64,000 nt of DNA from an uncultured Flavobacteriaceae bacterium (lineage in GTDB: Bacteria; Bacteroidota; Bacteroidia; NS11-12g; UBA955). The stretch spans positions 3,995 to 67,994 of the forward strand of contig CAZPHB010000010.1 of NCBI GenBank assembly GCA_964586595.1, written 5' to 3'. How positions within the stretch are numbered: position 1 is the stretch's first letter; each line of letters opens with the position of its first letter. The notes under the pieces were generated by a model. That model was not told where the DNA came from and ran no database searches. It saw nothing but the letters and a program-made list of their open reading frames with translations. The translations under genes and the position numbers were made by a program. Shown here in pieces: positions 3,522 to 63,470 of the stretch.

Positions 3522-6140
3522 TTATCGAATTTTGGTAAGTAATGCTTCCAGTCTGGGTAATTGGACAGGGGCATCCGGATCCTCTTCGCCTGCAAGGGTT
3601 ATTTCGTCCTTCAGTTCCCGGATGGATGTTACTGCCACCTTGCGCCAGGGTTTTTGTGCATCTTCCAGCAACCAGGTTTCGAAGTAGTCAATCAGTTCCA
3701 GCGCATTGTTCGATTTCAGGTAGCCGATGTAGGTAACCATTTCTCTGATCCTGGTGGATTTGGGCACAAATTCGTTGCGCAGCAATTCTTTCAGGTAAGG
3801 AGCTTCTGAATTTTCTGGCAGCAGTTCATACAACCTTCGCGTCCAGGCTAATGCTATTTCCGGATAAGGATTCATCATACCGGCGCGGGCATACCGCACC
3901 GCGGTGGCGCTGTCTTTGATGGCCTCAATGCCGGCCAGCGACAAGGCAATGCTTGAATCCTGAGTGAGTGCGATAAACAGCGGGTCGAACGAGGCTTCCG
4001 GCTCGTAGAACGTTGCGCAGCGGCTCAGCCAATGAACGGCTGCGACACGGGTGTTGCGCACCGGATCGTTAAATGCCAGTTCTTTCACCCTGGGAAGCAA
4101 TAAATCAATGATGGCCTTTTGGTTGTGACTTACGTTCAGACTGTATTCCAGCGCGTTGGCGCGCACCCAGGCATTGCGGTCTTTCAGTCCTGTAAGGAAA
4201 AATGAAGGCAGCAGGGCCGTGTCGGCTTCGTCAAAATCTTCTATGGAAACCTGTTCGATGGCAGCCACGCGCATCCACGCATCAGGAGCATAACGCAAAC
4301 GATCGAACAGCGGAGACAGTCCAAGGAGTGAAGCAGAGTCTGCCGGCCTTACAGGCGTGATGTCAATCAATGCCGGAAGGTGACCGTCGCCATCAGCAAT
4401 CCACCAGTCGGGTTTTTCTTCCAGTGGGATTTTAAATTCAAAGTTTCCGCTGCTGTTCAGGTGCTCACGATCCAGCATCAGCGCGTGTTTTTGAATCTTG
4501 GAACCATTGCCTGTCCATACCGAAAGAGGCATTTTAAATCCTTCCTCGGACGTTACATCGTCGCCATGCAGGGAAAAGCTGAGCGACAGGTGTTGTTCCT
4601 CCGGAACATAAATCGCGTACGCCTGAAGGCGGAAGTTGCTTGGGTTCAGATACCACAGATCAAAAAACCAGTGCAGGTCTTCGCCGCTCACAGCTTCATA
4701 GGCCATCCTGAGGTCATCCACTTCGGCGGTGCCATAAGCGTGCTGTGTGAGGTAGCGCTTCATTCCGGAAAAGAAGAGTTCATCACCCAGATATCCGCGC
4801 AGGTGATGCAGGATCAAAGCGCCCTTCTGGTAGCTGTTCGCATTGAACATGGCGTTGGGGTTTCGATAGAAGTAGTTCACCACCGCAGCCTTTTCATCAC
4901 CCAACATATGGGCATACCATGACTGAATACGCCACTGTTCGAGCAGTTCGTCGGCGTAATCCTTTCCGTATTTATGTTCCCGCCACAGATATTCTCCGTA
5001 AGTGGCAAAACCTTCATTCAGCACCAGGTTGGCCCAGCTTTCGCAGGTCACCAAATCGCCAAACCAATGGTGGAATAGTTCGTGTGAGATGTAATCTTCT
5101 TCAGTGTTGTCGAGGTGTTTCCGTTCATCGTGCTGCAGGCGCATGTTGTGCACCACGGCGCCGGTATTTTCCATGGCACCGCTCACAAAATCACGCACCA
5201 CCACCTGATCAAATTTCTCCCAGGGATATTCCACGCCGGTGATTTTTCCGAAGAAGTCAATCATTTCCGGAGTGTTGCCAAAAACCATGTTCGCATAACG
5301 TGCATATTCAGGCTCGGTGTAATAACGAACCGGAAGTTCTTCGCTGCGCGCATCTTCGGTGATGTTCCATTTGCCGATGGCAACCATGGCCAGGTACGGG
5401 GCGTGGGGTTGTTCCTGTTGCCAGACATCCGTGCGTGTTCCATCGCCATTTTTGGTGCTGTACACAAGGCTTCCGTTTGAAAGGCTCACCAAGGTATCGG
5501 GGAACCGAAAGCTGAACCATTGGGTTGTTTTTTGGTTTGGCGCATCCAAGGTGGGAAACCAATGGCTGTTGCTTTCTGTTTCGCCTTGCGTCCACACCTG
5601 TGTAGGCACATCCGGGTCTTCGCCATGCGGGTCAATGAAGTAAATTCCCTGATCCGAGGTGATGGCATCCCAGGGTTTCGTGGCGTCTGATTTTGGCAGT
5701 GTACGGTAGCGAAGCTCCAGCGTTACGGTATCGCCGGTGCGCACAGGTTCCTGGAAATACACCGTGCATTTGGTGGTATCGTTGTTTTGGCGATATACCA
5801 ATGGGCGTGGAGGGTTTGTGTTCAGGTACACGCCTTCAATGACCATTTCCTTTGCATCCAGCACCAGCGAATCGCGCGTTTTGGCAAAGGCGCTGAGGCG
5901 TAGCATTGCTGTTCCGCTCACGCGCGTTCCCGGGATGTCCACATCCAGCTCGAGGCGGGTGTGCACCAGATTCCAGTACCGTGTGGCACTGGGTTTAAAG
6001 GTTTCAGATCCTGCCGGAACATCTTCGAGGTACGCTTCGTCGATTTCCGGAAAGGCATAATCCTGTTCCTGCTTTTTGAATAAACTACAGGAATGCAGGA
6101 GTAGCAGTGCCAGGATGCCGGGCAGGATGCGGATATTCAT
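3522..6140 (-). CDS. pepN: M1 family aminopeptidase (aminopeptidase N-like) with C-terminal helical-repeat region
   Basis: GAMEN exopeptidase motif and HELFHHWFGD...E zinc site (HEXXH-18-E). Signal/lipobox LLLHSCS. ATG at 6138-6140. Confidence 0.9.
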   Translation of the reverse strand: MNIRILPGILALLLLHSCSLFKKQEQDYAFPEIDEAYLEDVPAGSETFKPSATRYWNLVHTRLELDVDIPGTRVSGTAMLRLSAFAKTRDSLVLDAKEMVIEGVYLNTNPPRPLVYRQNNDTTKCTVYFQEPVRTGDTVTLELRYRTLPKSDATKPWDAITSDQGIYFIDPHGEDPDVPTQVWTQGETESNSHWFPTLDAPNQKTTQWFSFRFPDTLVSLSNGSLVYSTKNGDGTRTDVWQQEQPHAPYLAMVAIGKWNITEDARSEELPVRYYTEPEYARYANMVFGNTPEMIDFFGKITGVEYPWEKFDQVVVRDFVSGAMENTGAVVHNMRLQHDERKHLDNTEEDYISHELFHHWFGDLVTCESWANLVLNEGFATYGEYLWREHKYGKDYADELLEQWRIQSWYAHMLGDEKAAVVNYFYRNPNAMFNANSYQKGALILHHLRGYLGDELFFSGMKRYLTQHAYGTAEVDDLRMAYEAVSGEDLHWFFDLWYLNPSNFRLQAYAIYVPEEQHLSLSFSLHGDDVTSEEGFKMPLSVWTGNGSKIQKHALMLDREHLNSSGNFEFKIPLEEKPDWWIADGDGHLPALIDITPVRPADSASLLGLSPLFDRLRYAPDAWMRVAAIEQVSIEDFDEADTALLPSFFLTGLKDRNAWVRANALEYSLNVSHNQKAIIDLLLPRVKELAFNDPVRNTRVAAVHWLSRCATFYEPEASFDPLFIALTQDSSIALSLAGIEAIKDSATAVRYARAGMMNPYPEIALAWTRRLYELLPENSEAPYLKELLRNEFVPKSTRIREMVTYIGYLKSNNALELIDYFETWLLEDAQKPWRKVAVTSIRELKDEITLAGEEDPDAPVQLPRLEALLTKIR

Positions 6141-7048
6141 CAGAATCTGGACAATTGCTCGAAGCGGCCTACGCGGTCGGCAAGTTCCTGTTCGGTAACT
6201 TCCAGCAAACGTTCCGGGCCAAACTTTTCTACACAGAAACTCGCCAGGGCGCTGCCGTGTACGATGGCCTTGCGCATGGTGTCAAAATCTGTTTTTCCGT
6301 GACGGGCGATGTAACCGATAAAGCCACCCGCGAAGGTGTCACCCGCGCCGGTAGGATCGAATACTTCTTCCAGTGGAAGCGCAGGACAAAAGAAGATGTC
6401 ATCACCATGAAACAGCAGGGCGCCATGTTCTCCTTTTTTAATCACAAGAATGCGCGGGCCCATATTTCGGATCACTTTAGCGGCTTTCACCAGCGAGTAT
6501 TCACCCGACAGCTGACGTGCTTCTTCGTCGTTGATGGTAAGCACATCGGTGAGGGTCAGCGTGTGGCGAAGGTCGTCCATGGCGCTTTCCATCCAGAAGT
6601 TCATGGTGTCCATCACCACCAGTTCCGGCTTTTGGTTCAGCCTTTCAATAACCGTGCTTTGCACTTTGGGACTGAGGTTGCCCAACATGATGTATCGGCT
6701 GTTTTGGTAGCTTTCCGGAAGAATAGGGTCGAAGCTGCCCAGCACATTCAGTTCGGTGGCGAGGGTGTCGCGGGTATTCATGTCGAGGTGATAACGGCCT
6801 TTCCAATAGAAAGATTTTTCACCTTGTTTCACCTGAAGCCCGGAGGTGTTCACGCCACGATTCTTGAGTGTTTCAACAAATGGTTGCGGGAAATCTTCGC
6901 CCACCACGGCCACCAGATTCACGTGTTCATGGAGCAGGGAAGAAGCCAGGCTGATGTAAGAAGCGGCGCCGCCAACAATGCGGTCGGTACTGCCAAAGGG
7001 AGTTTCGATGCCGTCGAAGGCCATGCTCCCAACTACGAGTATTGACAT
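6140..7048 (-). CDS. PfkB-family carbohydrate/nucleoside kinase
   Basis: DPTGAGDTFAGGF anion-hole motif near the C-terminus. Best start is MSILVVGS at 7048. The upstream part of ORF 6140..7171 is AT-rich promoter DNA. Confidence 0.8.
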   Translation of the reverse strand: MSILVVGSMAFDGIETPFGSTDRIVGGAASYISLASSLLHEHVNLVAVVGEDFPQPFVETLKNRGVNTSGLQVKQGEKSFYWKGRYHLDMNTRDTLATELNVLGSFDPILPESYQNSRYIMLGNLSPKVQSTVIERLNQKPELVVMDTMNFWMESAMDDLRHTLTLTDVLTINDEEARQLSGEYSLVKAAKVIRNMGPRILVIKKGEHGALLFHGDDIFFCPALPLEEVFDPTGAGDTFAGGFIGYIARHGKTDFDTMRKAIVHGSALASFCVEKFGPERLLEVTEQELADRVGRFEQLSRF

Positions 7049-7143
7049 AGGGAACAAAATTCCGGTATTTCCGGCAATCCTGCGCGGCAAACAGCTATTG
7101 CGTAACCATTTTGAAAAAAATTTCTTTTTGAAGAAGAAAATTT

Positions 7144-7151
7144 TATTTTTG
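7144..7151 (+). promoter_or_regulatory. Bacteroidota-type -7 box (TATTTTTG) upstream of tRNA-Asn
   Basis: TATTTTTGCA matches TAnnTTTG, 21 nt upstream of the tRNA 5' end. The same 10-mer precedes tRNA-Phe and the gene at 31133. No well-spaced -33 TTTG. Confidence 0.4.
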
Positions 7152-7171
7152 CAGCCCCTTCTAAGGGACAC

Positions 7172-7245
7172 TCCTCGATAGCTCAGCTGGTTAGAGCGAG
7201 CGGCTGTTAACCGCTAGGTCGTTGGTTCGAGCCCAACTCGGGGAG
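7172..7245 (+). tRNA. tRNA-Asn (anticodon GTT)
   Basis: Cloverleaf read by hand. Acceptor TCCTCGA/TCGGGGA, D arm GCTC-AGCTGGTTA-GAGC, anticodon arm AGCGG-CTGTTAA-CCGCT, T arm GTTGG-TTCGAGC-CCAAC. Confidence 0.93.
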
Positions 7246-7250
7246 CATAA

Positions 7251-7273
7251 GCCACCATACGGTGGCTTTTTTT
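7251..7273 (+). terminator. rho-independent terminator after tRNA-Asn
   Basis: GCCACC-ATAC-GGTGGC hairpin followed by TTTTTTT. Confidence 0.8.
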
Positions 7274-7445
7274 ATGCGTAATGAGTTGGGTGAGCAGTTT
7301 ATCCCGCTGAGGCAGCTGTGCAAGGAAGGAGCATATAAGCGGGGCGCTCAGCCAGGGAAGCTGAAAATAGCATCGGTGTAATTGATTCCGGGCTGCAGCA
7401 TTTTGTATGCGTGCATCGGCCTCACAGAGGCGTATATTGCAATGC

Positions 7446-7871
7446 ATGGAAGTTCGCGAATTGCCATTTAATAAGCTGATTCAACTCTCTAATTCAGATA
7501 AATCCGGGTACGCCTTAATGCTCCAAGGACATGAAATGTACACAAATCATCTGGGAACAGTGCATGCTGCAGCTCAATTTTCGCTGGCTGAAGCCTGCAG
7601 CGCTCAACTTCTAAAGGAGTTATTTCATGCGCATGCCGATGTGTTTATTCCTTTGGTTCGTCAGGTTGCAGTGAAATACCGTAAACCTGCTTTGGGTGAG
7701 GTTTATGGAAAGGCGATCTTGCTGGATACCTGTGTTGATGATGTGGTTGAACAACTTGAACACAGAAACAGAGTGCTTTTTCATGTAATGGTTCAACTTT
7801 TTGACAACGCCGATACGCTGGTGATGCGTGCAGATTTTGAGTGGTTTTTAACGACAAAAGTTCAGGGTTGA
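7446..7871 (+). CDS. hotdog-fold (PaaI/DUF4442-like) thioesterase
   Basis: ATG at 7446 (MEVRELPFNKL). The HLGTVHAAAQFSLAEA block is typical of PaaI-like thioesterases. About 140 aa. Confidence 0.6.
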   Translation: MEVRELPFNKLIQLSNSDKSGYALMLQGHEMYTNHLGTVHAAAQFSLAEACSAQLLKELFHAHADVFIPLVRQVAVKYRKPALGEVYGKAILLDTCVDDVVEQLEHRNRVLFHVMVQLFDNADTLVMRADFEWFLTTKVQG

Positions 7872-7894
7872 ATCAACAGCCTGCAATCGCTGCC

Positions 7895-8149
7895 ATGAAC
7901 GAGTTGTCTGAATTAAAGAATTTTGGTCCCTACATGGTGCGGATCTTAAACCAAATTGGCATCTATTCAAAGAATGATCTGTTGCAGGCCGATTTGAGGG
8001 AAATCTACCACGCGCTGCAAGAGCAGGGCATCAAGCCCCATTTGCTTATTTTTTATTCTATAGAAATGGGACTTCAGAACCGAAAGTGGTCGGATATCGG
8101 CGAAGCAGAAAAACGCCGTATTCAGGAGGTTTTGGGTATAAACAAATAG
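7895..8149 (+). CDS. TfoX/Sxy C-terminal domain protein
   Basis: MNELSELKNFGPYMVRILNQIGIYSKNDL... resembles the stand-alone TfoX_C helix-hairpin-helix domain. ATG at 7895. Confidence 0.6.
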   Translation: MNELSELKNFGPYMVRILNQIGIYSKNDLLQADLREIYHALQEQGIKPHLLIFYSIEMGLQNRKWSDIGEAEKRRIQEVLGINK

Positions 8150-8260
8150 TGAAGTCTATGTTCACAACTGTGGTGCTGTAAGTGAAAGCATCCATTGCCC
8201 CCAATGAATTGATGTGGCCCGGGGCCTGTCATAAGCCGCAGTGTGCACATTTTAACGCAT

Positions 8261-8291
8261 AAAAAAACTGCGACCCGTTTCCAGGCCGCAG
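8261..8291 (-). terminator. rho-independent terminator of the 8321..10873 gene
   Basis: Minus strand reads CTGCGGCC-TGGAAAC-GGGTCGCAG followed by TTTTTTT, 30 nt after the stop codon. Confidence 0.75.
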
Positions 8292-8320
8292 TTATTCTTT
8301 AGGATAAAGATTGTATGGTG

Positions 8321-10873
8321 TTATTGCTGCAAAGCGATGCGCTTCATGTAGTGCGTATGTTCAGACTGAACCTGAATCCAGTAGATGCCATTGCTCAGGC
8401 CGGTGAGGTTCAGGTGCATGGTATTGGCTGCTGCTGCATTGTGCTGCATCACCACGCGTCCGTTGGCATCAACAACACTGATGTTCATGGTGCCGCTGAG
8501 TTGTTCTGTGAACTGCAGTGTTATAGTCCCTGTGCTTGGGTTAGGATACACCTCGAAGTTGCGCATGGGTAATTCATTGACTGAATTTGCCGGTTCCTGG
8601 AACCGTTTCAACTTGATAAATCTGGATTGTGCAGCCAGCAAATTCTGTGTGTCGGCTGTAGCTACAACAGCCCATTGCAGCGTTACGCTGTCGCCGGGAT
8701 TAAGCCCCTGGCTGACCAGCAATGCATCTATTCCACCATAAGAAACAGTGAACACCGTGTCTTTACCGGAATTGTTTGATGGGAATGAGAATGTGGGAGT
8801 ATTGAAGTTGCCACCGGGAAGGATGGCCACCCAGCGATAGGTCACAGGTAAGGTACCTGCTGTGCTTTTGCGCCAGATGATGTCCACCAGGTCAGGCTGG
8901 GAAGGCTTTACCGTGAGTGAAGCGCCATCAGCAGGTGATACCAGTCCGAAGCTGCTCAATGGGGCAACCATATAACCGCGGATGAGGTCGATGGCAAAGC
9001 TTTCTGAATAGATGGTATCGGCGCTCGATGATGAAACGGCACGCACACGCCAAACAGCTTTAAGTGTGTCGCCTACCTTCAGTCCGAAGCTGGCAAGCAC
9101 CTGGTCGATGGCGCCGAAGTTCAGGCTCAGGGTGGTATCGGCGCCGCTGTTGTCCGACGCCAATGCAAGGGCAGGTGGCGCGTATTTGTCCAGCGCGCGG
9201 AGGTCTGCCTGCCAGGTATAGCTTACGTTGCTGAGTTTGGCAGCGGAGGTCCAGCTGATGGTTACCGGGGTGGAAGCAGGGCCATTTACGCGAAGGCTGA
9301 AATTATCTGGAGGACTCAGGTTGCTGATGCTTCCGAGGTCTTTGGTAGAACGCTTCAGCCGGATGTCCCAAATCTGGGAAGCGTCGCGTCGCTGGGTGTC
9401 GGCTGCCGCGCGCACGGTCCACTGCAAATCTATGCTGTCGCCCTGTTGGAGGCCAAGGCTTGCAAGGAGGTTGTCGAGTGCGCCAAGGGTAACGGTGAGT
9501 GTGGTATCGGAACCGCTGTTGTCCGATGCGAGGCTTACGGCCGGACTGGCGAAACTGCCGCCTTTGGCTATGGCCAGCCATTGGTAGGTTACGGGCAAGG
9601 TGCCTGCCTTGGCAGCGCTCCAGCGAATCACAGCCTGTTGGGCCTGTCCGGAGGCCACGGTCAGTGCAGTTTCATCGGCCGGTGCCAACAGGTTGAAGGG
9701 CGACAATGGAGCAACCATGTAGCCGCGGATGAGGTCGATGGCAAATGTGTCGGAATAAAGCGTATCTCCACTTGAAACTGCGCGCACACGCCATACGGCC
9801 TTAAGTGTGTCACCTACTTTTAAGCCAAGGCCGGCAAGCACTTGGTCAAGTGCGCCGAAGTTGAGGCTGAGCGTGGTGTCTTTACCGCTGTTGTCGGAGG
9901 CCAGTGCCAGCGCAGCGGGATTGAATCCGGAAATTGAACGGGCATCGGCCTGCCATTCGTAAACGGCACCGGGGAAGTTCTGTGCTGCAAACCAGTTGAT
10001 CGTAACGGGCGTCGATGCAGGTCCGTTCACGCGGAGGGATGCATTATTCGCCGGGCCGACCAGTTTGGGTGCAACGGGATTATTGGTGGCAACCCAGTTC
10101 CAGTCGGTGCGGGCAATGATGCCGTCCACCATGATGCCTTGGCCGGCATTGAACTGTCGGAGTGCAGCAAATTGTATGAAGTTTACATCTGTTTGGTCTC
10201 CGCCCAGCGGACCCAATGTGGGCTTGGCAGGTTCTGCGGTAATATCATCGCCATCGGCAAATACAAACAAGCTCACAGAATCGTTGGTGGCGGAGCCTGG
10301 AATGAAATGGTATTTCACCACCGCCATGTAGGTCACGCCCGTATCGAGGTCGCTTGTCATGTTCACACCCGCAGTAGACGGGGCAGTTGACGAATTGAAC
10401 GTAAGGCCAAGCCTGAACTGACTGGTTGAGCTGCCGGGAACAACATAGGTTCGTGCCCGGAAAGCCGAGCTGATGGCCGTGTACACAGGTACACTGTTGT
10501 TTGCATATTCCCCAACGTGGAAGAAATATCCTTGCGTACTGGTAGTTACCACCTTGTTCACCTTGAACAGGAATGCCGTGTACACTTTGCCGGAATCAAC
10601 CCAGCTTGAGAACGGCCTGTTCTCGTCGCTGCCGGTATTGCTTACCGATGCAGCGTTGCCAACGCCACTTCCAAGATAAGCGGTCTTGCTCCACGACAAT
10701 CCGCCGTTGCTTACTTTGATGGGATTGGTGGTGCCGGCGCTGTGGCCATACCAGCCGTTGTTTTGAAGGTTGTCACCCGATGTGTAATCGAAGTGCTCAA
10801 CCAGTAAAGGGTTTTGGGCCTGCAACTGCGAAAGCAACAGCATTCCCGAAATGAGCGTATAGATTTTTTTCAT
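8321..10873 (-). CDS. T9SS-sorted secreted protein with conserved N-terminal domain, (A-B)x2 repeat modules and Por_Secre_tail
   Basis: ATG at 10873 (MKKIYTLISGMLLLSQLQAQ signal). C-terminus has VYPNPSTGTITLQF...GIYWIQVQSE, a T9SS type A sorting domain. N-terminal 250 aa are paralogous to 10981..12414. Confidence 0.85.
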   Translation of the reverse strand: MKKIYTLISGMLLLSQLQAQNPLLVEHFDYTSGDNLQNNGWYGHSAGTTNPIKVSNGGLSWSKTAYLGSGVGNAASVSNTGSDENRPFSSWVDSGKVYTAFLFKVNKVVTTSTQGYFFHVGEYANNSVPVYTAISSAFRARTYVVPGSSTSQFRLGLTFNSSTAPSTAGVNMTSDLDTGVTYMAVVKYHFIPGSATNDSVSLFVFADGDDITAEPAKPTLGPLGGDQTDVNFIQFAALRQFNAGQGIMVDGIIARTDWNWVATNNPVAPKLVGPANNASLRVNGPASTPVTINWFAAQNFPGAVYEWQADARSISGFNPAALALASDNSGKDTTLSLNFGALDQVLAGLGLKVGDTLKAVWRVRAVSSGDTLYSDTFAIDLIRGYMVAPLSPFNLLAPADETALTVASGQAQQAVIRWSAAKAGTLPVTYQWLAIAKGGSFASPAVSLASDNSGSDTTLTVTLGALDNLLASLGLQQGDSIDLQWTVRAAADTQRRDASQIWDIRLKRSTKDLGSISNLSPPDNFSLRVNGPASTPVTISWTSAAKLSNVSYTWQADLRALDKYAPPALALASDNSGADTTLSLNFGAIDQVLASFGLKVGDTLKAVWRVRAVSSSSADTIYSESFAIDLIRGYMVAPLSSFGLVSPADGASLTVKPSQPDLVDIIWRKSTAGTLPVTYRWVAILPGGNFNTPTFSFPSNNSGKDTVFTVSYGGIDALLVSQGLNPGDSVTLQWAVVATADTQNLLAAQSRFIKLKRFQEPANSVNELPMRNFEVYPNPSTGTITLQFTEQLSGTMNISVVDANGRVVMQHNAAAANTMHLNLTGLSNGIYWIQVQSEHTHYMKRIALQQ
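8591..10075 (-). repeat. intragenic tandem duplication: four ~120-aa modules arranged A1-B1-A2-B2
   Basis: A1 is aa 281-400 and A2 is aa 529-649. They share long identical strings (LRVNGPASTPVTI, LALASDNSG, GLKVGDTLKAVWRVRAVSS, FAIDLIRGYMVAPLS). B1/B2 share GTLPVTY.W and the SDNSG/SNNSG blocks. Period about 247-249 aa. Confidence 0.85.
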
Positions 10874-25799: not shown

Positions 25800-27960
25800 A
25801 AGGGTCAGTTGGATTGATTTTGTGTATGAATCTGTAGGCAGTTCGGTTTTTTTAAGACCACCTAAAAACGGATACAACCGTCTTCTTTTTCGCTATTTCG
25901 ATGAATTCAACGCCTTAAATGAAAACCTTATTTAGCTTTTCTGCTATACGCTCATATTCGTAATCATCAATAATGTATTCTGCTTTTATCCGCTCAAGGA
26001 TGATATTGTGGTATTTTTTATCCGTTTTGAAGAAGTTAGTTACTGAGGTTTCTAGGTTCACCCTGGATTCATACAATACAGCAATTGTGCGTATAATTTG
26101 GTTGAAAATAGAATTCAATATCTTTTCATAATCATCCGGCCTGTCCTCTTTAAAAAGTTTACCATTTAGATTATCTATAACCACATCGGCTGACCATTCC
26201 GGAGAATTTGTGTCCAGTTTTAGATCAACCAGGCCTCTTTTATGTTTGATTAGGAAGCAAATTATAGCCAAAATAGCGAGTTTACCATTTTTCGAAACAT
26301 TAGCACCAGTTTCACTTAACGAAACACTTGTAATGTATTTATCAAACATATCTGCTAATTTCAATAGGTCTACAATGGTTGATTTATCGTGGTTCCGTTT
26401 GTAAACTTTATTGTAAAATGATTTATCAGCAAAAATTTTCTTCTTTGCACTCCTTGCTGTCCCTGGTTGCTGGAGTATACATGCTAGAATAATTTGACCT
26501 AAATGATCGTTTTTTATTTTCTGCCAGTTTTCGACATTTTTATACTTTAATATACCCTCACCGCGCTTAATTTCAAGATATATTTTGGGTTCATCTTCTT
26601 TGAGAATAGTCTGTAGTTTTCGTTGTTCTATCTGATTAGACTTTAGATCTCTATCGGATATTGGCTTTTGGGAGTTTGATGCTTCGGCAATTTCCGAAAT
26701 GAAAATGTTAAAGTAATCGTCTCCTATCTTGTCCGGTTTAATTATTTTACATGGTATCGGGAAATCTAAATCTTCGTGTGTGCCTTTATATGCACCGATC
26801 ATAGTTGTAGTCTGACATCCATTGACGATTGAGAAATCCGTAAGTTTGATATTGTCTCCATCGGGATCAAAGTCTTTGCAACCGATAATTATTCCATTAT
26901 TTAAAAACCAGAAAAGATCACGCTTGCTTTTGAGTGATTCATTTATTTGGTTATCTATTTTTTCGTTTTTTATATAGTATCTGAAATTTTGCTCGAACAA
27001 GCCATCGTTCTTATACCTATCGTACAAATCTCTTAGTGAAATGGCTGAAATGTCTACTAAAAGTCCATTGTCGCCATTTTTAATCATACCATGATTTTTG
27101 AATATTTTAATTTTCCCGTTTGGTACAAATCTTCTTTCTTCCTCGTATGATGCAATTTGTTGAATAAGTTCATCCCTGAAAAATAGTTGATATTCGAAAT
27201 CATTAAGGGCCTCAACTTTTGCCAGGTGGTCATAAATCATGTTGCGATAATCCTCTGTTTTATCAAAACCAATAAATAGAACTAGTTTTATATTAAAGTT
27301 GGCATCATCTGATGCGTCGTCAAATTTTTCTCGGTAAATCTTTCTTAATCTTTCATTATAGTTGCCAATCTTTTCATTTTTGAAGTCGGAAACTGTTTGG
27401 GCCATCTTTGTAAAAATATCCTTGATCTCATCTTTTGAATTAACATCATTTATGTTCTTCGACTGGATTAGAATCAAGTTTTTCTCTAAGTCGTTTTCCT
27501 CAACAGCAATCAGGTCAATCCCACCATCGTTGGATCCATCTACAAAAGAGTTTTTAAAATCTGTTTTATCGAACTTTCCGTCATTGTAGAAATACTTATA
27601 TGCCAAGATTCCAAATATGAAGTCATCTGACAATTTGCTGGTTTCGGGTACATTTACCCTAATTTCGTTTACAGCTTTTATTATTGGGTCTTGGATTGAC
27701 ATGTTTTTATCATATTTTACTTTAAATTAAAGTTCGCCAGCAGATAAACTGGTATCTATTGATCGTTTTTTGACAAATATAGTTGTGAATGATGACCTTT
27801 CCAAGGTGAGGATAGAAGTCATTTAGCCTCGATTTGTCAACCGGTAATTAATTGGAATACAATGTTTTGGTGAGTTTATATGGTTTGTTTCGTTCAGTGC
27901 CAATTGTGAATCAGATATGTCAAGTTCTTGGAGCACGTTTCAGCTCGTTTCTTATGCGTC
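25800..27960. other. low-GC islet (horizontally acquired segment)
   Basis: Spot counts of 60-nt lines give about 33-37% GC inside, against about 62% at 25381-25440. The change is sharp near 25.8 kb. Confidence 0.7.
25915..27702 (-). CDS. AIPR-family abortive infection / phage resistance protein
   Basis: 595 aa. N-terminal GSNDGGIDLIAV...LILIQSK (nuclease/Mrr-like block). Central FWFLNNGIII...IVNGCQTT block is characteristic of AIPR (PF10592-type) proteins. Candidate -7 box TATATTTG (minus strand) at 27774-27781. Confidence 0.75.
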   Translation of the reverse strand: MSIQDPIIKAVNEIRVNVPETSKLSDDFIFGILAYKYFYNDGKFDKTDFKNSFVDGSNDGGIDLIAVEENDLEKNLILIQSKNINDVNSKDEIKDIFTKMAQTVSDFKNEKIGNYNERLRKIYREKFDDASDDANFNIKLVLFIGFDKTEDYRNMIYDHLAKVEALNDFEYQLFFRDELIQQIASYEEERRFVPNGKIKIFKNHGMIKNGDNGLLVDISAISLRDLYDRYKNDGLFEQNFRYYIKNEKIDNQINESLKSKRDLFWFLNNGIIIGCKDFDPDGDNIKLTDFSIVNGCQTTTMIGAYKGTHEDLDFPIPCKIIKPDKIGDDYFNIFISEIAEASNSQKPISDRDLKSNQIEQRKLQTILKEDEPKIYLEIKRGEGILKYKNVENWQKIKNDHLGQIILACILQQPGTARSAKKKIFADKSFYNKVYKRNHDKSTIVDLLKLADMFDKYITSVSLSETGANVSKNGKLAILAIICFLIKHKRGLVDLKLDTNSPEWSADVVIDNLNGKLFKEDRPDDYEKILNSIFNQIIRTIAVLYESRVNLETSVTNFFKTDKKYHNIILERIKAEYIIDDYEYERIAEKLNKVFI

Positions 27961-47695: not shown

Positions 47696-48319
47696 ATGGC
47701 TACAAAACAAAATTCAGGAAAAGCGGGAAAAAAAGCTACCGTCAAGGAAGTTGCCGCAACTGCGGGCGTATTGCCTGCAGCACCTGCCCGACGCAAGGGA
47801 CGTCCGGTAGGCTCAAAAAACCGCAAGGTGACAAAAGCAGCTGTTAAACGTGCAGTTGCAAATGCAAAAGCACCTATTGAATCTCTTTCTATTGGTTTTT
47901 CTTTTGATGACATCCGTGCATCAAATCTGGAAAACCTCGTGCGTCAGGAAAAGGAAGTTCAGCATGTACTTACCGCCATTCGCAAAGCGAAGCTGGCTTT
48001 TGGCAAATTGAGTGCTAAATCCTTTTCTATGGAAGGTGCGAGCATCACTGGTGGAACACGTAAACCTAAAAAGCGCGGTCCAAAGAAGGGCTTCAAGCGC
48101 GGTGGTGTAACTAAAAAACAGTCCATCATCAACTACATGAATGAAATTGGTACACCGGTAAAATCTGGAGATTTAATAGCCGAGCTGTTCAAGCGTTCCG
48201 GCGAAAGAAACCGGACCAGTTTCAGGCAAAGTATGTTCACCACACTGTCACAGATTTACAAATCAGGGGAGCTTGTAAAGGACAGCGAAGGTGTAATTTC
48301 TCTTGCCAACAAAGGTTAA
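47696..48319 (+). CDS. lysine/arginine-rich DNA-binding-like protein with AT-hook-like motifs and C-terminal winged-helix-like domain
   Basis: RRKGRPVGSKNRK and KPKKRGPKKGFKRGG basic motifs. About 60-aa C-terminal globular segment. Own promoter and terminator. Confidence 0.6.
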   Translation: MATKQNSGKAGKKATVKEVAATAGVLPAAPARRKGRPVGSKNRKVTKAAVKRAVANAKAPIESLSIGFSFDDIRASNLENLVRQEKEVQHVLTAIRKAKLAFGKLSAKSFSMEGASITGGTRKPKKRGPKKGFKRGGVTKKQSIINYMNEIGTPVKSGDLIAELFKRSGERNRTSFRQSMFTTLSQIYKSGELVKDSEGVISLANKG

Positions 48320-59102: not shown

Positions 59103-59136
59103 ACGCCTGCACATGGTTTAAACCATGTGCAGGCGT
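59103..59136. repeat. perfect 34-bp palindrome centred on GGTTTAAACC
   Basis: ACGCCTGCACATGGTTT|AAACCATGTGCAGGCGT lies between the convergent stops at 59094 and 59144. No flanking T-run. Confidence 0.9.
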
Positions 59137-59143
59137 GTATTCC

Positions 59144-60814
59144 TTACAAATGTGCCACAACAAAGTTGTAGGCATTGTCGAAACAAATTTTCCGTGCCAG
59201 ACTTTCTGCATTTTCGCCGGCAGGAACAAAGTATTCCTGGCTGCGGTTTGAATCAAAAATCACTTGCTGGATGTTCCGGGCAAGGTCTTGTTCCAAGGCG
59301 GGATAGTCCAGCACCGTGGCGTACTTGTTCAATGGGTCGATGTATCCATCAAAATCGCTCCCCAGACTGAACAGATTCCACAGATTCTGCTTTTCCGAAG
59401 TGTTTAACTTGGGATGTTTGAGGATGCCCTCAAGCATGCCGTGCAGGTTTTGCCACAGGGCATCTGCGCTGGTGCTGTCCAAATCCGTCGCTTTGTTGTT
59501 GTTGCGTTCTTCTGCTTCCGTGTCGATGCCACAAATCCGTTGATCCAGACTTAATCCAATCAAACCACCCGTTTTCACTGCCCAGAATAAATCTTCATTG
59601 CACATATTGATGTTCCAGCGGTTGATGAAGCTGCCATCGCCCATCGGATTGTTCAGCGCGATGAGTTCTTGCAGCGTATCCACGCCACTGTAGCCCATGT
59701 GGCTGTATATGAGCGGTGGCGGATTTTCCGGAATATGCTTGTAGATGCGCTCGTAGATGTCGGATCTGGTTCTTGCCGAACTGTGTTTTAAGTCGATCAG
59801 GATGTTGTTTCCGGTGATCGTCGGATTGGGCAGATATTGGCCGTTCTGGTTTTTGGCAATCCCGAGGAAATCGGCCACACATTGTTCCCCTAAATCGGTC
59901 AAACCTTCATCCAAACGCGCGCTTTGGTCGAGTAAAATGTCGCCGGGCGACGGAAGGCTTTTTGCATGACCGCTGATGTGGTTGTCGAAATGGTGCCCCA
60001 GCGTGATGAAGAAGATACGTGAATGGTTCCAGTTCCTTAGGGTGGTGATGCGCTCTTTGATGCGATCCCAAAAGTCGGCATCCAGGGGATTGAGTTTGTC
60101 AATTCCCAGCACATGGGCACCTTCAATGGTAAGCACCATGGCAATACCATTTCCCTGTTGGATGACGTTGCGCACTTCCGCGCCCTGGTTGCAAATGGTG
60201 TATTTACCTTTTGCTTTGGTGTTGCGGAGGTATTCCTCTTTTTTGGAATTACCTGTGAGCTGCTGAATCAGCTTTTTTTCACCCAGAACCACAGACTCAC
60301 GTTCTTCATTGGAATGATGGATGATGAAATCGCGTTCGGTATGCAATTCCTGCCAATAGTCGTAAGTAGCTGAGGTGAAGAAGTCTGCCCGTTTTCTGGG
60401 AATCTTCATCATGAGCGCCTGAATGGTTTTTCGCACTTCGGGGTCATTGATTTTATCCTTGACAAGTAGGCCCAATCCGTTGAATAGTGGATTCAGGATA
60501 TCGTGTTTGGTTAGGAATTCCACCAGTTTCGCTATTTCCGCAGGGCCCAGGTTCCTTTCCGCGATAAAAAAGCCACGTTCTATAGGGTAAAGTGCATTAA
60601 AGACCAATCTGGTGCTCGAATTAGTGCACAACACCAAATTGCTCTGATTGTACGAAAAGGCCCTTTTGCCCTCGCCTTGTTTTTTCAGATTTCCTGCTGA
60701 TATGGTCCAGGGATGATAATATTTCGGGTTGTCGCGGAGTCGATCAATGGCTACATTGTTGTAGCTGCGCATGTGCACGTGCAGGTGCAGGTCTGCGTAA
60801 GGTTTGTTGCTCAT
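59144..60814 (-). CDS. M19 (renal/membrane dipeptidase)-like metal hydrolase with large insertion
   Basis: Ordered blocks YADLHLHVH, TIEGAHVLG, ITLGHHFDN, IDLKHSS, YSHMGY, GGLIGLSLD and LGSDFDGY mirror M19 motif order. About 150 extra residues after block 1. Confidence 0.6.
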   Translation of the reverse strand: MSNKPYADLHLHVHMRSYNNVAIDRLRDNPKYYHPWTISAGNLKKQGEGKRAFSYNQSNLVLCTNSSTRLVFNALYPIERGFFIAERNLGPAEIAKLVEFLTKHDILNPLFNGLGLLVKDKINDPEVRKTIQALMMKIPRKRADFFTSATYDYWQELHTERDFIIHHSNEERESVVLGEKKLIQQLTGNSKKEEYLRNTKAKGKYTICNQGAEVRNVIQQGNGIAMVLTIEGAHVLGIDKLNPLDADFWDRIKERITTLRNWNHSRIFFITLGHHFDNHISGHAKSLPSPGDILLDQSARLDEGLTDLGEQCVADFLGIAKNQNGQYLPNPTITGNNILIDLKHSSARTRSDIYERIYKHIPENPPPLIYSHMGYSGVDTLQELIALNNPMGDGSFINRWNINMCNEDLFWAVKTGGLIGLSLDQRICGIDTEAEERNNNKATDLDSTSADALWQNLHGMLEGILKHPKLNTSEKQNLWNLFSLGSDFDGYIDPLNKYATVLDYPALEQDLARNIQQVIFDSNRSQEYFVPAGENAESLARKICFDNAYNFVVAHL

Positions 60815-61972
60815 TTAAGGAAGGTTCTGGTGGAAGGAAGAACTGAGGTAACGTCGAGGGTTGTGTTCGGTGATTTGCGCCCATTGTTCGTCGCTGACGG
60901 CTGCGCGGAAGTCCTTAACCAGCTTTTGCTCGGGGTTTTCTTTTTCTGTCATGAAGAAGTCCGTTCCAAACAAAATTTTATCCGGGAACTCCCTGATGAG
61001 TGCCGCAATCTCGTCGAATACCGCATGCTCGTAAAGGGTATAGCTTATATCGGTATATACATTTTTAAAGCGCAACAACGACTTCACCTCTTCAAACCAG
61101 TTTTGATTGCCCAAAGCATTACATTTCCGGTCATTAATGTTTTGCTGGTCATGCTTCATGTAGATGCTGCCGCCGGCATGCGCCAGACAAATCTTTAAAT
61201 CGGGAAATTGCTTCAATACCGGTTTGTAATTGACAGGGTTGGAGAAGTTGTATCTGAAGCAGGAATAGTCGGTATCGTCGTTTAAGCGTTGCTGAACCTC
61301 TTCAGGAATGCCGCAAAAAGAAACGGGGCGTCGGTGGGCGTCGCTGATGCGTTTTTTCTTTTTGAATTTACCCCATTTTTCATCCGATTGGTAATGAATA
61401 CCGCCGATGTCGCAATGCGTCATCAGTGGAATTTGGTGTTCCTGCGCGTATGCATAAAGCGGTTCCATCCTGTGGTCGAAGGGATAAAAGCCCAGGGGCG
61501 GATACAGTTTCACCCCATAAAAATGTTTCCGTTCGATGCTGTGTTTTACGGTACGCAGGCCATCGGCATTTCTGGGGTCGAAGCCTACAAAGCCAAAGAT
61601 CTGATTCGGGAATTCCTTCTTCAGTGCATAAATTTCTTCTATTTGGGCGTAGAAGTTTTCCTGTGCTTTTCCGGCATTCATGTGGTCCATGTCCATGGTG
61701 AGCACGATGAATTTCCAGTTGTCATCATATTCGTAGGCTTGGCGCAGGTGATTGAAAACTTCACTCTGGCGTTGCAACATCCCGATTTTGGCAAAGGCCG
61801 CCATACGCCGCTGGTTGTCGTTGCCGATGGCCCGAGTAATTTTATCCAGTGCCTTGATGGAAATATTCGTCAATCCCGGCTTGTTCGCCAGTCTGGCAAA
61901 TCCTGGAAATCCGTAAAACGCGTTGGGCAGGTTGCGTATGCTGAACAGGTGTACGTGACAATTGTATGGCAT
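60815..61972 (-). CDS. Amidohydro_2-like TIM-barrel metal-dependent hydrolase
   Basis: MPYNCHVHLF (HxH), MTHCD, CLAHAGG and FGTDFF blocks. Its stop abuts the start codon of 59144..60814. Confidence 0.6.
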   Translation of the reverse strand: MPYNCHVHLFSIRNLPNAFYGFPGFARLANKPGLTNISIKALDKITRAIGNDNQRRMAAFAKIGMLQRQSEVFNHLRQAYEYDDNWKFIVLTMDMDHMNAGKAQENFYAQIEEIYALKKEFPNQIFGFVGFDPRNADGLRTVKHSIERKHFYGVKLYPPLGFYPFDHRMEPLYAYAQEHQIPLMTHCDIGGIHYQSDEKWGKFKKKKRISDAHRRPVSFCGIPEEVQQRLNDDTDYSCFRYNFSNPVNYKPVLKQFPDLKICLAHAGGSIYMKHDQQNINDRKCNALGNQNWFEEVKSLLRFKNVYTDISYTLYEHAVFDEIAALIREFPDKILFGTDFFMTEKENPEQKLVKDFRAAVSDEQWAQITEHNPRRYLSSSFHQNLP

Positions 61973-61975
61973 GAT

Positions 61976-62947
61976 TTACTTTTTTGAAGTGCCTACCGAA
62001 CGAAGATTGATGATTTTATTGATGACATCCCACCAGAAGGGTGCACCCATGCGCATGAGCATTGCAGCAAGAATGTAACCGCTGAGCAGTCGTATATAAT
62101 TCCACACAATGCCCAAAAATCCGGGATGATCTGATTCCGTCCCGCTTTGAAAAGGCTCCTTTTGGGTGAAGCAGGCCTTCCACACCCCCGGGTTGATGCC
62201 AATGGGCAAGCCCATCCTGTTGAGTTCACGGGTAACTGAATCCATCAGTTCTTTGGGGTTTTCGCCTTCGTATGTTGGCATATTTCCCTGGGCGGCCAGC
62301 ATCGTTATTTTCGCTTCCAATGCTTTCTGGGCGTTTTGGTTGTGCCATAAATCCTGGAACAGGGTTAAACCGTTGACGTTTAGTACCATCGCCACCAGCA
62401 GGGCAATGACAAACAGCGGCTTTTTCTGCCTGCGTTTATACTCGCCGGAAATGCGCGCCATATATGCGTCAAACCATTTGACAATATTGGCTTTGATGGC
62501 GTCTGCCCGGTCGGAACTATCGCTGCCTGAAGGCAGCAGACTGTAAAGGAATTGCTGCTGTTTGTAGGAATCCACCAGGGCAATGCCCTGTACAAATCGT
62601 TCCGCGTTGGAAACCGATATACGGTCATCGGCGGTGGCGCCTACATCCACGGTTTTTTCGGCGATGATGGAAAAAAGGGCATCGGCAAAGTTTTGTCCGT
62701 CGATGGCGCTCGGCATATAATCTGTGCCGCTCAGCTGTTGTGCAATCTGTGGATGCCGATACAGCTCAGCAACGAGGTTACTCTTCTCGTCGGTGAGTGC
62801 TTTTTCAAGCATCTCACGTAAAAAGATTTTACGCTTATGAATACGCCCCGAATAGGCATTCCATAATTCCAGAAAACTGGAAACAATGTTGCTGAGCAGC
62901 AGGTAAACCGCCGCAAGGGAAAGTAGGTAGATCAATAATGCTGGCAT
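61976..62947 (-). CDS. three-TM membrane protein, unknown family (C-terminal GAPFWWDVINKIINLR)
   Basis: TM helices at aa 3-25, about 185-205 and about 285-305. Soluble loops between them. 3-nt gap to the next gene. Confidence 0.6.
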   Translation of the reverse strand: MPALLIYLLSLAAVYLLLSNIVSSFLELWNAYSGRIHKRKIFLREMLEKALTDEKSNLVAELYRHPQIAQQLSGTDYMPSAIDGQNFADALFSIIAEKTVDVGATADDRISVSNAERFVQGIALVDSYKQQQFLYSLLPSGSDSSDRADAIKANIVKWFDAYMARISGEYKRRQKKPLFVIALLVAMVLNVNGLTLFQDLWHNQNAQKALEAKITMLAAQGNMPTYEGENPKELMDSVTRELNRMGLPIGINPGVWKACFTQKEPFQSGTESDHPGFLGIVWNYIRLLSGYILAAMLMRMGAPFWWDVINKIINLRSVGTSKK

Positions 62948-62971: not shown

Positions 62972-62999
62972 ATTATAAGCATGAATTTGAAAAAGTCAA
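62972..62999 (-). promoter_or_regulatory. sigma70-consensus-like promoter TTGACT-N16-TATAAT for the three-gene cassette
   Basis: Minus strand has TTGACT (62999-62994), a 16-nt spacer and TATAAT (62977-62972), 25 nt before the ATG at 62947. No TAnnTTTG box within about 110 nt upstream. Confidence 0.4.
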
Positions 63000-63438: not shown

Positions 63439-63470
63439 TGCCTTGCCACGGTTTAAACCGTGGCAAGGCA
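63439..63470. repeat. perfect 32-bp palindrome centred on GGTTTAAACC
   Basis: TGCCTTGCCACGGTTT|AAACCGTGGCAAGGCA, 16 nt downstream of the stop of 63486..63944. Arms resemble those of the 59103 palindrome (GCCT.GC.CA.GGTTTAAACC). Confidence 0.9.

What the first reader, a model, noticed from the sequence alone, without database searches (positions are those of the whole stretch)
59144..62947. Self-contained three-gene cassette of unknown function: 3-TM membrane protein + Amidohydro_2-like hydrolase + expanded M19-dipeptidase-like hydrolase
Three minus-strand genes are packed with 3-nt and 0-nt gaps, so they are very likely co-translated.

- Gene A (61976..62947) has TM helices at the N-terminus, middle and C-terminus and ends in GAPFWWDVINKIINLR. 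I cannot assign it to a family.
- Gene B (60815..61972) carries HxH at residues 6-8 plus HCD, CLAHAGG and FGTDFF. This fits an Amidohydro_2-type TIM barrel.
- Gene C (59144..60814) shows the ordered M19/renal-dipeptidase blocks (DLHLHVH, IEGAH, LGHHFDN, DLKHS, SHMG, GGLIGL, GSDFDG). It also has about 150 inserted residues.

Two different amidohydrolase-superfamily enzymes are coupled to a dedicated membrane protein. No transporter, regulator or pathway partner is adjacent. Spot GC counts give about 47-50%, against about 60% in the flanking yfhO. The cassette sits between two convergent core-type genes and is bracketed by related palindromes. All of this suggests an inserted module. One possibility is a conflict/defence-type system (membrane sensor or effector plus hydrolases). 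Another is a dedicated peptide or nucleotide-derivative processing system.
Basis: partly seen in the sequence, partly recalled or inferred. Interest (0 to 1): 0.72.

Follow-up and report, generated by a model that had tools for sequence, protein, structure and literature searches.

The report
Membrane protein coupled to leaderless hydrolases
The three genes form a real, conserved operon in which a membrane protein from a very large unannotated bacterial family is partnered with two metal-dependent hydrolases that lack export signals, an arrangement that most resembles a non-viral holin-plus-lytic-enzyme (controlled lysis, release or suicide) module, though its function has not been tested.

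Summary
The three minus-strand ORFs exist exactly as described, with 3-nt and 0-nt gaps. B is an Amidohydro_2 enzyme. C has an M19-dipeptidase fold with insertions. A is a 3-TM protein (predicted N-out/C-in) with a confident model and no Pfam, NCBIfam, PDB or viral-structure match.

The trio is syntenic elsewhere: 63% relatives carry it beside Cas9, and a Cyclobacteriaceae genome carries it with A only 27% identical. A and B form reciprocal clades, so they are an old co-evolving pair. C is a recurrent optional third gene (9 of 30 A–B loci).

The A family is very large (17,576 clusters at 50% identity) and essentially absent from phages. Across the family, the gene right after A is usually a signal-peptide-less degradative enzyme: peptidoglycan amidase, peptidase or lysozyme, patatin or Tle1 lipase, S8 or CHAT protease, or TIR. 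Some A proteins are fused to a PG-binding domain or a protease. In Maribellus, C sits next to a GTA 3-TM holin and an amidase.

Best reading (confidence about 0.4): A gates or activates leaderless hydrolases at the envelope. A role in defence is possible but not shown.

The parts
61976..62947 (-). Gene A: 323-aa three-TM membrane protein (TM1 about 2-25, TM2 about 177-196, TM3 about 277-299, plus a C-terminal amphipathic helix). It is a member of a very large unannotated family with invariant E27, R39, W158, G250 (LPIGW) and a GAPFW(F/W)D motif.
   Evidence: ORF. No Pfam, NCBIfam, PADLOC or PHROG family. Family alignment. Model pLDDT 90, pTM 0.82 with no PDB or BFVD fold match. 17,576 clusters at 50% identity. 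N-out/C-in topology from K+R bias.
60815..61972 (-). Gene B: 385-aa Amidohydro_2 TIM-barrel metallo-hydrolase with no signal peptide. Ligand-type residues H6, H8, K155, H186, H265 and D338 are conserved. It belongs to the A-linked clade of its family.
   Evidence: Pfam PF04909, 1.2e-24. Conservation. Only weak links to solved ACMSD-type structures. A-linked B proteins form one clade.
59144..60814 (-). Gene C: 556-aa M19-dipeptidase-fold metallo-hydrolase with about 150-200 inserted residues and no signal peptide. It has HxH (H10, H12) where M19 has HxD. E231, H344, H372 and D487 are invariant.
   Evidence: Pfam partial hit of 25.3 bits. Profile against PDB: M19 3fdg, 6e-5. Model pLDDT 90.4. 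Foldseek top 20 hits are all M19, 4.5e-12, TMt 0.6-0.69. Conservation.
62972..62999 (-). Best promoter-like site (TTGACT-16-TATAAT, 11 of 12), 25 nt upstream of A's start codon.
   Evidence: Consensus scan only. The number of sites in the region is not above the shuffled expectation. No Rfam element in the 538-nt leader.
59103..59136 (.). Perfect 34-nt palindrome between the convergent stops of C and the 362-aa gene. Likely a bidirectional hairpin terminator marking the 3' end of the operon.
   Evidence: Conserved in position with covarying stems in L171-L173.
63439..63470 (.). Perfect 32-nt palindrome with the same GGTTTAAACC centre, just past the stop of the DUF2147 gene. Likely that gene's terminator, and the upstream boundary of the cassette's leader.

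Best explanation
A-B-C is one operon of a widespread, cellular (non-viral) module. A conserved three-TM inner-membrane protein of a new family works together with hydrolases that are made in the cytoplasm without export signals. Across the family the partner is most often a peptidoglycan hydrolase, and otherwise a lipase, protease or TIR enzyme. In this clade it is the Amidohydro_2 enzyme B, often together with the M19-like enzyme C. The most likely mechanism is analogous to holin-endolysin or type-10-secretion cassettes. On some trigger, A opens or reorganises in the membrane and gives B and C access to the envelope, or activates them there. They then hydrolyse amide bonds, plausibly in peptidoglycan stem peptides or another envelope component. 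The outcome would be controlled lysis or release of cell contents, possibly as an abortive-infection or suicide response. Shown here: gene structure, protein families and folds, intact catalytic residues, synteny, co-diversification of A and B, absence of signal peptides, partner polymorphism, fusions, and absence from phages. Inferred: the gating role of A, the substrates of B and C, and the physiological purpose.
For: (1) The operon is tightly packed. The same order and spacing are seen at 63% identity in a different context and in a Cyclobacteriaceae genome where A is 27% identical. (2) A sits directly upstream of B in 25 of 80 B-family loci. A-linked B proteins form one clade (33 of 34 leaves), and B-linked A proteins form one clade (34 of 38 leaves). 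C is the only recurrent extra gene (9 of 30 A-B loci). (3) Of 48 genes immediately downstream of A-family genes: PG_binding_1 8, Amidohydro_2 7, Amidase_2 6, S8 3, patatin 3, Tle1-like 2, M15_4 2, PG_binding_3 2, and phage-type lysozyme, CHAT and Pycsar-type TIR 1 each. At flanking positions there are also S9, M15_3, M23, GH108, DNase II and PLC genes. PGAP-annotated plasmids show A followed 2 nt later by a MurNAc-L-Ala amidase. (4) These partners, including B and C, lack signal peptides, while A is predicted N-out/C-in. (5) Fusions: A joined to a PG-binding-domain region (4lpq, 5.5e-9) and A joined to a chymotrypsin-fold protease. (6) The distant trio has an M15_3 PG peptidase 3 nt upstream of A. 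In six Maribellus-type loci C is followed by a GTA_holin_3TM gene and then an Amidase_2+SH3 gene. C sits next to M15_4 and a contractile injection system in Hymenobacter. (7) C's structural neighbours are dipeptidases solved with L-Xaa-D-Xaa mimics. (8) Holin-dependent release systems of non-phage origin are established (PMC9527704, PMC10847048).
Against: A shows no homology to any holin (no Pfam hit; hhalign against the GTA 3TM holin gives probability 1.6%). At 323 aa it is two to three times the size of classical holins, and it has a folded cytoplasmic domain of about 140 aa. Neither B nor C is a recognised cell-wall hydrolase, and no peptidoglycan hydrolase is encoded in this window's cassette. 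Two thirds of B-family genes and most C-family genes occur without A, so these enzymes can work without it. Partners such as TIR and CHAT act in the cytoplasm in known systems, which fits a sensor or effector role for A better than a gate. No experiment, and no structure of a complex or oligomer, was available.
Confidence: 0.4

Rival explanations
1. An abortive-infection or anti-phage defence system built like Lamassu, Avs or CBASS, with one conserved component (A, a membrane sensor or a membrane-disrupting effector) combined with swappable enzymatic effectors. Here B and C would act in the cytoplasm, for example by destroying a nucleotide, cofactor or peptide, and would not cross the membrane.
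For: The partner set includes classic defence effectors: Pycsar-type TIR, CHAT, patatin and S8. One family member is fused to an N-terminal P-loop NTPase (GNSGTGKSS motif read by eye). TIR_2 and ThsB-like TIR genes recur near A plus PG-hydrolase loci. The cassette sits beside Cas9-Cas1-Cas2 in L004. Near other A-B loci there are type I R-M, caspase-like, MADS or Dpd-like genes and an SNF2 helicase. The cassette moves between contexts and occurs on plasmids.
Against: No PADLOC model matches A, B or C. Defence neighbours are seen in a minority of loci and no control set was scanned. The commonest partners are peptidoglycan hydrolases with PG-binding domains, which must act outside the membrane. 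In this lineage the cassette has native composition and a stable position.
Confidence: 0.25
2. A housekeeping envelope-maintenance or recycling module. A anchors or regulates hydrolases that trim or recycle peptidoglycan peptides or other envelope components during growth, without lysis or conflict.
For: Native GC, GC3 and codon usage, and the same position in 84-92% relatives. The C family is present across whole genera (Algoriphagus, Ekhidna), as a core gene would be. M19-type enzymes are dipeptidases. Cytoplasmic recycling enzymes also lack signal peptides (general knowledge of AmpD and LdcA).
Against: The A-B pair is sporadic and sits in a different neighbourhood at almost every locus. Partner types such as TIR, CHAT, patatin, Tle1 and DNase II are not recycling enzymes. 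No permease or other recycling genes are adjacent.
Confidence: 0.2
3. The three genes are unrelated and are merely adjacent.
For: B and C families often occur alone.
Against: Reciprocal A/B clades, conserved order and overlapping or near-zero spacing across distant genomes, and fusions of A to partner-type domains.
Confidence: 0.02

Closest known systems
Phage and GTA holin-endolysin lysis cassettes (class I three-TM holins; GTA_holin_3TM, PF11351)
   Same: A three-TM N-out/C-in membrane protein sits immediately upstream of, and is translationally coupled to, a signal-peptide-less wall hydrolase. C itself sits beside a GTA 3-TM holin and an amidase in Maribellus.
   Different: No sequence or profile similarity. 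A is 300-450 aa with folded soluble domains. The family is cellular: 0 hits in 50,697 phage genomes and 3 in 2.9 million viral contigs. Partners extend to lipases, proteases, TIR and, here, amidohydrolases.
Type 10 secretion systems and non-lytic holin-dependent protein release (PMC9527704, PMC10847048, PMC10109510)
   Same: A non-phage chromosomal cassette in which a membrane protein lets leaderless proteins leave the cytoplasm, possibly in a subpopulation.
   Different: T10SS use recognisable phage-derived holins and endopeptidases or muramidases plus a separate cargo. Here the membrane protein is a new family and no separate cargo or PG hydrolase is encoded in the window.
Modular defence systems with swappable effectors (Lamassu, Avs, CBASS, retrons; own knowledge)
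   Same: One conserved component combined with protease, lipase, TIR or amidase-type partners, with patchy distribution and changing neighbourhoods.
   Different: No homology to any component. The conserved part is a membrane protein, and the dominant partners are extracytoplasmic wall hydrolases.
M19 membrane/renal dipeptidase family (GliJ, Sco3058, DPEP1)
   Same: C shares the fold and the ordered motif blocks, including the bridging Glu, His, His and Asp.
   Different: Below Pfam's cutoff. About 150-200 inserted residues. HxH instead of M19's HxD at strand 1 (M19 motif from own knowledge). 10-15% identity.
Amidohydro_2 (PF04909: ACMSD, LigI-type decarboxylases, hydratases and lactonases)
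   Same: B passes the Pfam threshold and keeps HxH...H...H...D.
   Different: Only about 20 bits to any solved member. There is an insertion of about 85 residues after the HxH. It forms a distinct A-linked clade. The substrate is unknown.

Membership tests
Amidohydro_2 (PF04909), gene B | Score above Pfam's gathering threshold | tested here: met
   88 bits against 26.4, E 1.2e-24, residues 96-375.
Amidohydro_2 (PF04909), gene B | Amidohydrolase-superfamily metal ligands (HxH on strand 1, His on strands 5 and 6, Asp on strand 8) conserved | tested here: met
   H6 and H8 nearly invariant; H186, H265, D338 and K155 invariant in 40 sequences. Assignment to strands is inferred, not modelled.
Characterised Amidohydro_2 subfamilies (ACMSD, LigI, IDCase and others), gene B | Significant similarity to a member of known function | tested here: not met
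   No phmmer hit to PDB. The profile gives only E 1.7e-3, 20.6 bits, partial, to ACMSD.
Peptidase M19 (PF01244), gene C | Score above Pfam's gathering threshold over the whole domain | tested here: not met
   25.3 bits against 26, covering only profile positions 83-169 of 319.
Peptidase M19 (PF01244), gene C | M19 TIM-barrel fold | tested here: met
   Foldseek top 20 hits are all M19 (5lwz 4.5e-12, 3itc, 1itq), TMt 0.6-0.69, probability 1.00. Profile against PDB gives 3fdg at 6e-5.
Peptidase M19 (PF01244), gene C | Binuclear zinc site HxD / Glu / His / His (own knowledge of DPEP1) | tested here: inconclusive
   E231, H344, H372 and D487 are invariant, but strand 1 carries H10-x-H12 instead of HxD. 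No residue-level structural superposition was done.
Holins (class I; GTA_holin_3TM), gene A | Sequence or profile homology to a holin family | tested here: not met
   No Pfam hit at E <= 1. No credible PHROG hit (the only match is phrog_604, a family of unknown function, E = 0.0057, with no stretch passing on its own). hhalign against the GTA 3TM holin gives probability 1.6%.
Holins (class I; GTA_holin_3TM), gene A | Three TM segments, N-out/C-in, charged C-terminus | tested here: met
   Model and hydropathy. K+R net +2.1 before TM2 and +2.0 after TM3, against about 0 in the TM2-TM3 loop. Consistent with the fusions P0440 and P0413. This is a prediction only.
Holins (class I; GTA_holin_3TM), gene A | Small size (about 70-170 aa) and phage or GTA origin | tested here: not met
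   323 aa (family range 280-500). 0 hits in 50,697 phage genomes, 3 in IMG/VR.
Holins (class I; GTA_holin_3TM), gene A | Adjacent leaderless peptidoglycan hydrolase | tested here: inconclusive
   True for many family members and for the distant trio (M15_3). In this window the adjacent enzymes are B and C, whose substrates are unknown.
Holins (class I; GTA_holin_3TM), gene A | Forms membrane lesions that release the enzyme | not testable with these tools
   Needs expression, permeabilisation and localisation assays.
Known anti-phage defence systems (PADLOC-DB v2) | Match of any component to a defence-system model | tested here: not met
   No hit for A, B or C at E <= 1.
Known anti-phage defence systems (PADLOC-DB v2) | Protection against phage | not testable with these tools
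   Needs phage challenge.

The most novel reading that the evidence does not exclude
Gene A defines a previously unrecognised, very large (more than 17,000 clusters at 50% identity) cellular family of membrane 'gate or activator' proteins with a new fold. It is the common chassis of a modular cell-suicide, defence or release system whose interchangeable payloads are leaderless hydrolases. B (Amidohydro_2 clade) and C (expanded M19-like clade) would then be new classes of envelope-degrading, or metabolite-destroying, effectors.
Probability: 0.35. Interest if true: 0.8.

Novelty: new variant of a known kind. Interest (0 to 1): 0.62.

Why it matters
If A really gates or activates leaderless hydrolases, it would be a widespread non-phage counterpart of holins. 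It would give a function to a family of more than 17,000 sequence clusters that no database currently annotates. It would also explain many orphan 'hypothetical protein + amidase/lipase/protease' gene pairs in soil and aquatic bacteria, and add two new enzyme clades (B and C) to the repertoire of lytic or conflict effectors. That bears on how bacteria lyse on purpose: abortive infection, release of injection systems, vesicles or DNA, and leaderless protein secretion. It could also yield new lytic enzymes.

Tried and rejected
- **Recent horizontal insertion inferred from GC:** rejected.
- **Palindromes as mobile-element ends:** rejected. They are conserved in place with covarying stems in close relatives and absent from the copy in another context.
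- **A as a phage holin family:** rejected.
- **A resembling any solved or viral predicted structure:** nothing below E 0.25.
- **Prophage or tailocin context for A plus PG-hydrolase loci:** no structural phage markers in 110 neighbours. eCIS association is seen only anecdotally.
- **A conserved neighbour for solo B genes that would reveal a pathway:** none found.
- **Riboswitch or known RNA in the 538-nt leader:** none.
- **Third genes of A-B loci that lack C (L016, L052, L109):** no PDB match.
- **P-loop region of P0440:** no PDB match.
- **The three IMG/VR loci:** uninformative.
- **First C-family locus scan:** failed for lack of a conserved block and was redone with a narrower alignment.


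Full report
**Observation**

The gaps are 3 nt and 0 nt. Every quoted motif is present in the translations.

- B is a clear Amidohydro_2 protein (88 bits).
- C gets only a partial, just sub-threshold Peptidase_M19 hit (25.3 against 26 bits).
- A matches nothing in Pfam, NCBIfam or PADLOC, and nothing credible in PHROGs.
- The flanks are a 362-aa protein with no Pfam hit, YfhO, and a DUF2147 gene. No transporter, regulator or pathway partner is adjacent.

The composition claim fails. Cassette GC is 0.47-0.49 against 0.512 +/- 0.036 for 44 other genes. GC3 is at the background value, and codon usage is among the most typical in the window.

The two palindromes are real: 59103-59136 and 63439-63470, both perfect, both centred on GGTTTAAACC, and the only two in 64 kb. 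In close relatives they sit at the same gene ends with covarying stems. They are missing where the cassette lies in a different neighbourhood. They therefore look like local hairpin terminators, not insertion borders.

**The proteins**

- **B** keeps the amidohydrolase ligand pattern (H6/H8, K155, H186, H265, D338). It is far from any solved or characterised member.
- **C** gives a confident model (pLDDT 90.4). Its 20 best PDB neighbours are all M19 dipeptidases: GliJ, Sco3058 and renal dipeptidase, at E about 1e-12 and TM 0.6-0.69 on the target. A family profile also reaches M19 structures (6e-5). It differs from M19 by about 150-200 inserted residues and by HxH in place of M19's HxD. The catalytic-type residues are invariant.
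- **A** gives a confident all-helical model (pLDDT 90, pTM 0.82). It has no similarity to anything in the PDB or in BFVD. The K+R bias across 41 homologues supports N-out/C-in topology, with a cytoplasmic domain of about 140 residues and a periplasmic loop of about 80 residues. Two fusion architectures are consistent with this.

Neither B nor C has a signal peptide.

**Synteny**

- Relatives at about 63% identity carry A-B-C with the same spacing but next to Cas9-Cas1-Cas2 and different downstream genes.
- Relatives at 84-92% carry it at the same site as in the window.
- A Cyclobacteriaceae genome has the whole trio although its A is only 27% identical. There a small M15_3 peptidoglycan peptidase lies 3 nt upstream of A.
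- Among 80 B-family loci, 25 have an A gene directly upstream.
- In 30 non-redundant A-B loci, the only recurrent additional gene is a C-family member: 9 loci, 6 of them in A-B-C order. All other neighbours differ.
- In neighbour-joining trees the A-linked B proteins form one clade (33 of 34 leaves). The B-linked A proteins form one clade (34 of 38 leaves).

So A and B are an old, co-diversifying pair, C is a facultative third component, and the unit relocates as a whole.

**The wider A family**

The family is very large: 17,576 clusters at 50% identity at E <= 1e-3, and 8,573 at E <= 1e-30. It is found in more than 570 species-level genomes of many phyla and on 12 plasmids. It is virtually absent from viruses.

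The gene immediately downstream is usually a degradative enzyme (counts from 48 downstream genes):

| Downstream Pfam family | Members |
|---|---|
| PG_binding_1 | 8 |
| Amidohydro_2 | 7 |
| Amidase_2 | 6 |
| Peptidase_S8 | 3 |
| Patatin | 3 |
| Tle1-like phospholipase | 2 |
| Peptidase_M15_4 | 2 |
| PG_binding_3 | 2 |
| Phage-type lysozyme, CHAT, Pycsar-type TIR | 1 each |

- Further S9, M15_3, M23, GH108, DNase II and PLC genes sit at flanking positions.
- These partners lack signal peptides.
- Independent PGAP annotation on plasmids shows the 'hypothetical' A followed 2 nt later by a MurNAc-L-Ala amidase.
- Some family members are fusions. In one, A is joined to a region with a genuine peptidoglycan-binding domain (5.5e-9). 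In another, A is joined to a chymotrypsin-fold protease. In a third, a P-loop NTPase, an extra TM and a coiled coil precede A.
- The surroundings of A plus PG-hydrolase loci have no phage structural genes. They do repeatedly contain TIR proteins and eCIS-type toxins.

**The C family**

Most C genes are solo, but their neighbours are telling.

- In six Maribellus/Draconibacterium/Tangfeifania loci, C is followed by a GTA_holin_3TM gene and then an overlapping Amidase_2+SH3 gene.
- In Algoriphagus, a DUF900 alpha/beta-hydrolase ends 3-4 nt before C.
- In Ekhidna a patatin follows C. In Aureispira another alpha/beta-hydrolase precedes it.
- In Hymenobacter, C lies between an M15_4 peptidase and a contractile injection system.

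C thus keeps company with lysis-type enzymes, and A occupies the position that a bona fide holin occupies elsewhere. A is not homologous to that holin.

**Interpretation**

The best-supported reading is that A is a membrane gate or activator for cytoplasmically made hydrolases. This is analogous to holin-endolysin cassettes and to holin-dependent type 10 secretion (PMC9527704, PMC10847048). In this reading B and C are the payload of this clade, plausibly acting on peptidoglycan stem peptides or another envelope amide. I give this about 0.4.

The main rival (about 0.25) is a defence-type module in which A senses or disrupts the membrane and the enzymes act inside the cell. It is favoured by the TIR, CHAT and NTPase associations and by occasional defence-island neighbours. 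It is unsupported by any known-system match or by a controlled enrichment test.

A housekeeping envelope-recycling role (about 0.2) fits the native composition and the genus-wide presence of C. It does not fit the polymorphic partners or the shifting contexts.

None of these readings is demonstrated. The gating step, the substrates and the trigger are all inferred.

**Novelty**

The logic resembles known lysis or release cassettes and modular conflict systems. The membrane component, however, is an unannotated family with an unmatched predicted fold, and the payloads here are enzyme classes not previously tied to such modules. I rate it a new variant of a known kind, of good but unproven interest.

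Noticed in passing
window 25915-27702 (-): A 595-aa ORF with GC 0.334 and GC3 0.336 against 0.507 for the window, the strongest compositional outlier. By tblastn it is 34.6% identical over 92% of its length to genes annotated 'AIPR family protein' (abortive-infection type) on Enterococcus plasmids. It is probably a horizontally acquired defence gene about 32 kb from the cassette.
   Followed up: partly
window 59103-59136 and 63439-63470; L171 3338-3369; L172 904-945 and 5194-5225; L173 1424-1463: A lineage-specific family of perfect palindromes with an invariant GGTTTAAACC centre and covarying stems at gene ends. Probably hairpin terminators. The reason for the fixed centre is unexplained.
   Followed up: partly
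P0330, P0390, P0440, P0413 (A-family members): Fusion architectures: A + chymotrypsin-fold protease; A + PG-binding-domain region; P-loop NTPase + TM + coiled coil + A; and a Cys-rich repeat array inserted in the TM2-TM3 loop.
   Followed up: partly
L187, L192, L198, L204, L208, L214 (about 6000-9000 in each): A non-phage cassette in Maribellus, Draconibacterium and Tangfeifania: C-family hydrolase, then GTA_holin_3TM (PF11351), then Amidase_2+SH3_3, tightly spaced.
   Followed up: partly
L004 147-5665: A type II CRISPR-Cas locus (Cas9, Cas1, Cas2) lies immediately upstream of, and divergent from, the 63%-identical copy of the cassette.
   Followed up: no
L251 11777-17403: In the distant full trio, four further same-strand genes without Pfam hits (568, 255, 863 and 171 aa) follow C and precede a type I restriction-type helicase. 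They may extend that operon.
   Followed up: no
L089 3772-5969: Two A-family genes in tandem upstream of one B gene.
   Followed up: no
window 47696-48319 (+): A second low-GC3 gene (GC 0.457, GC3 0.389).
   Followed up: no
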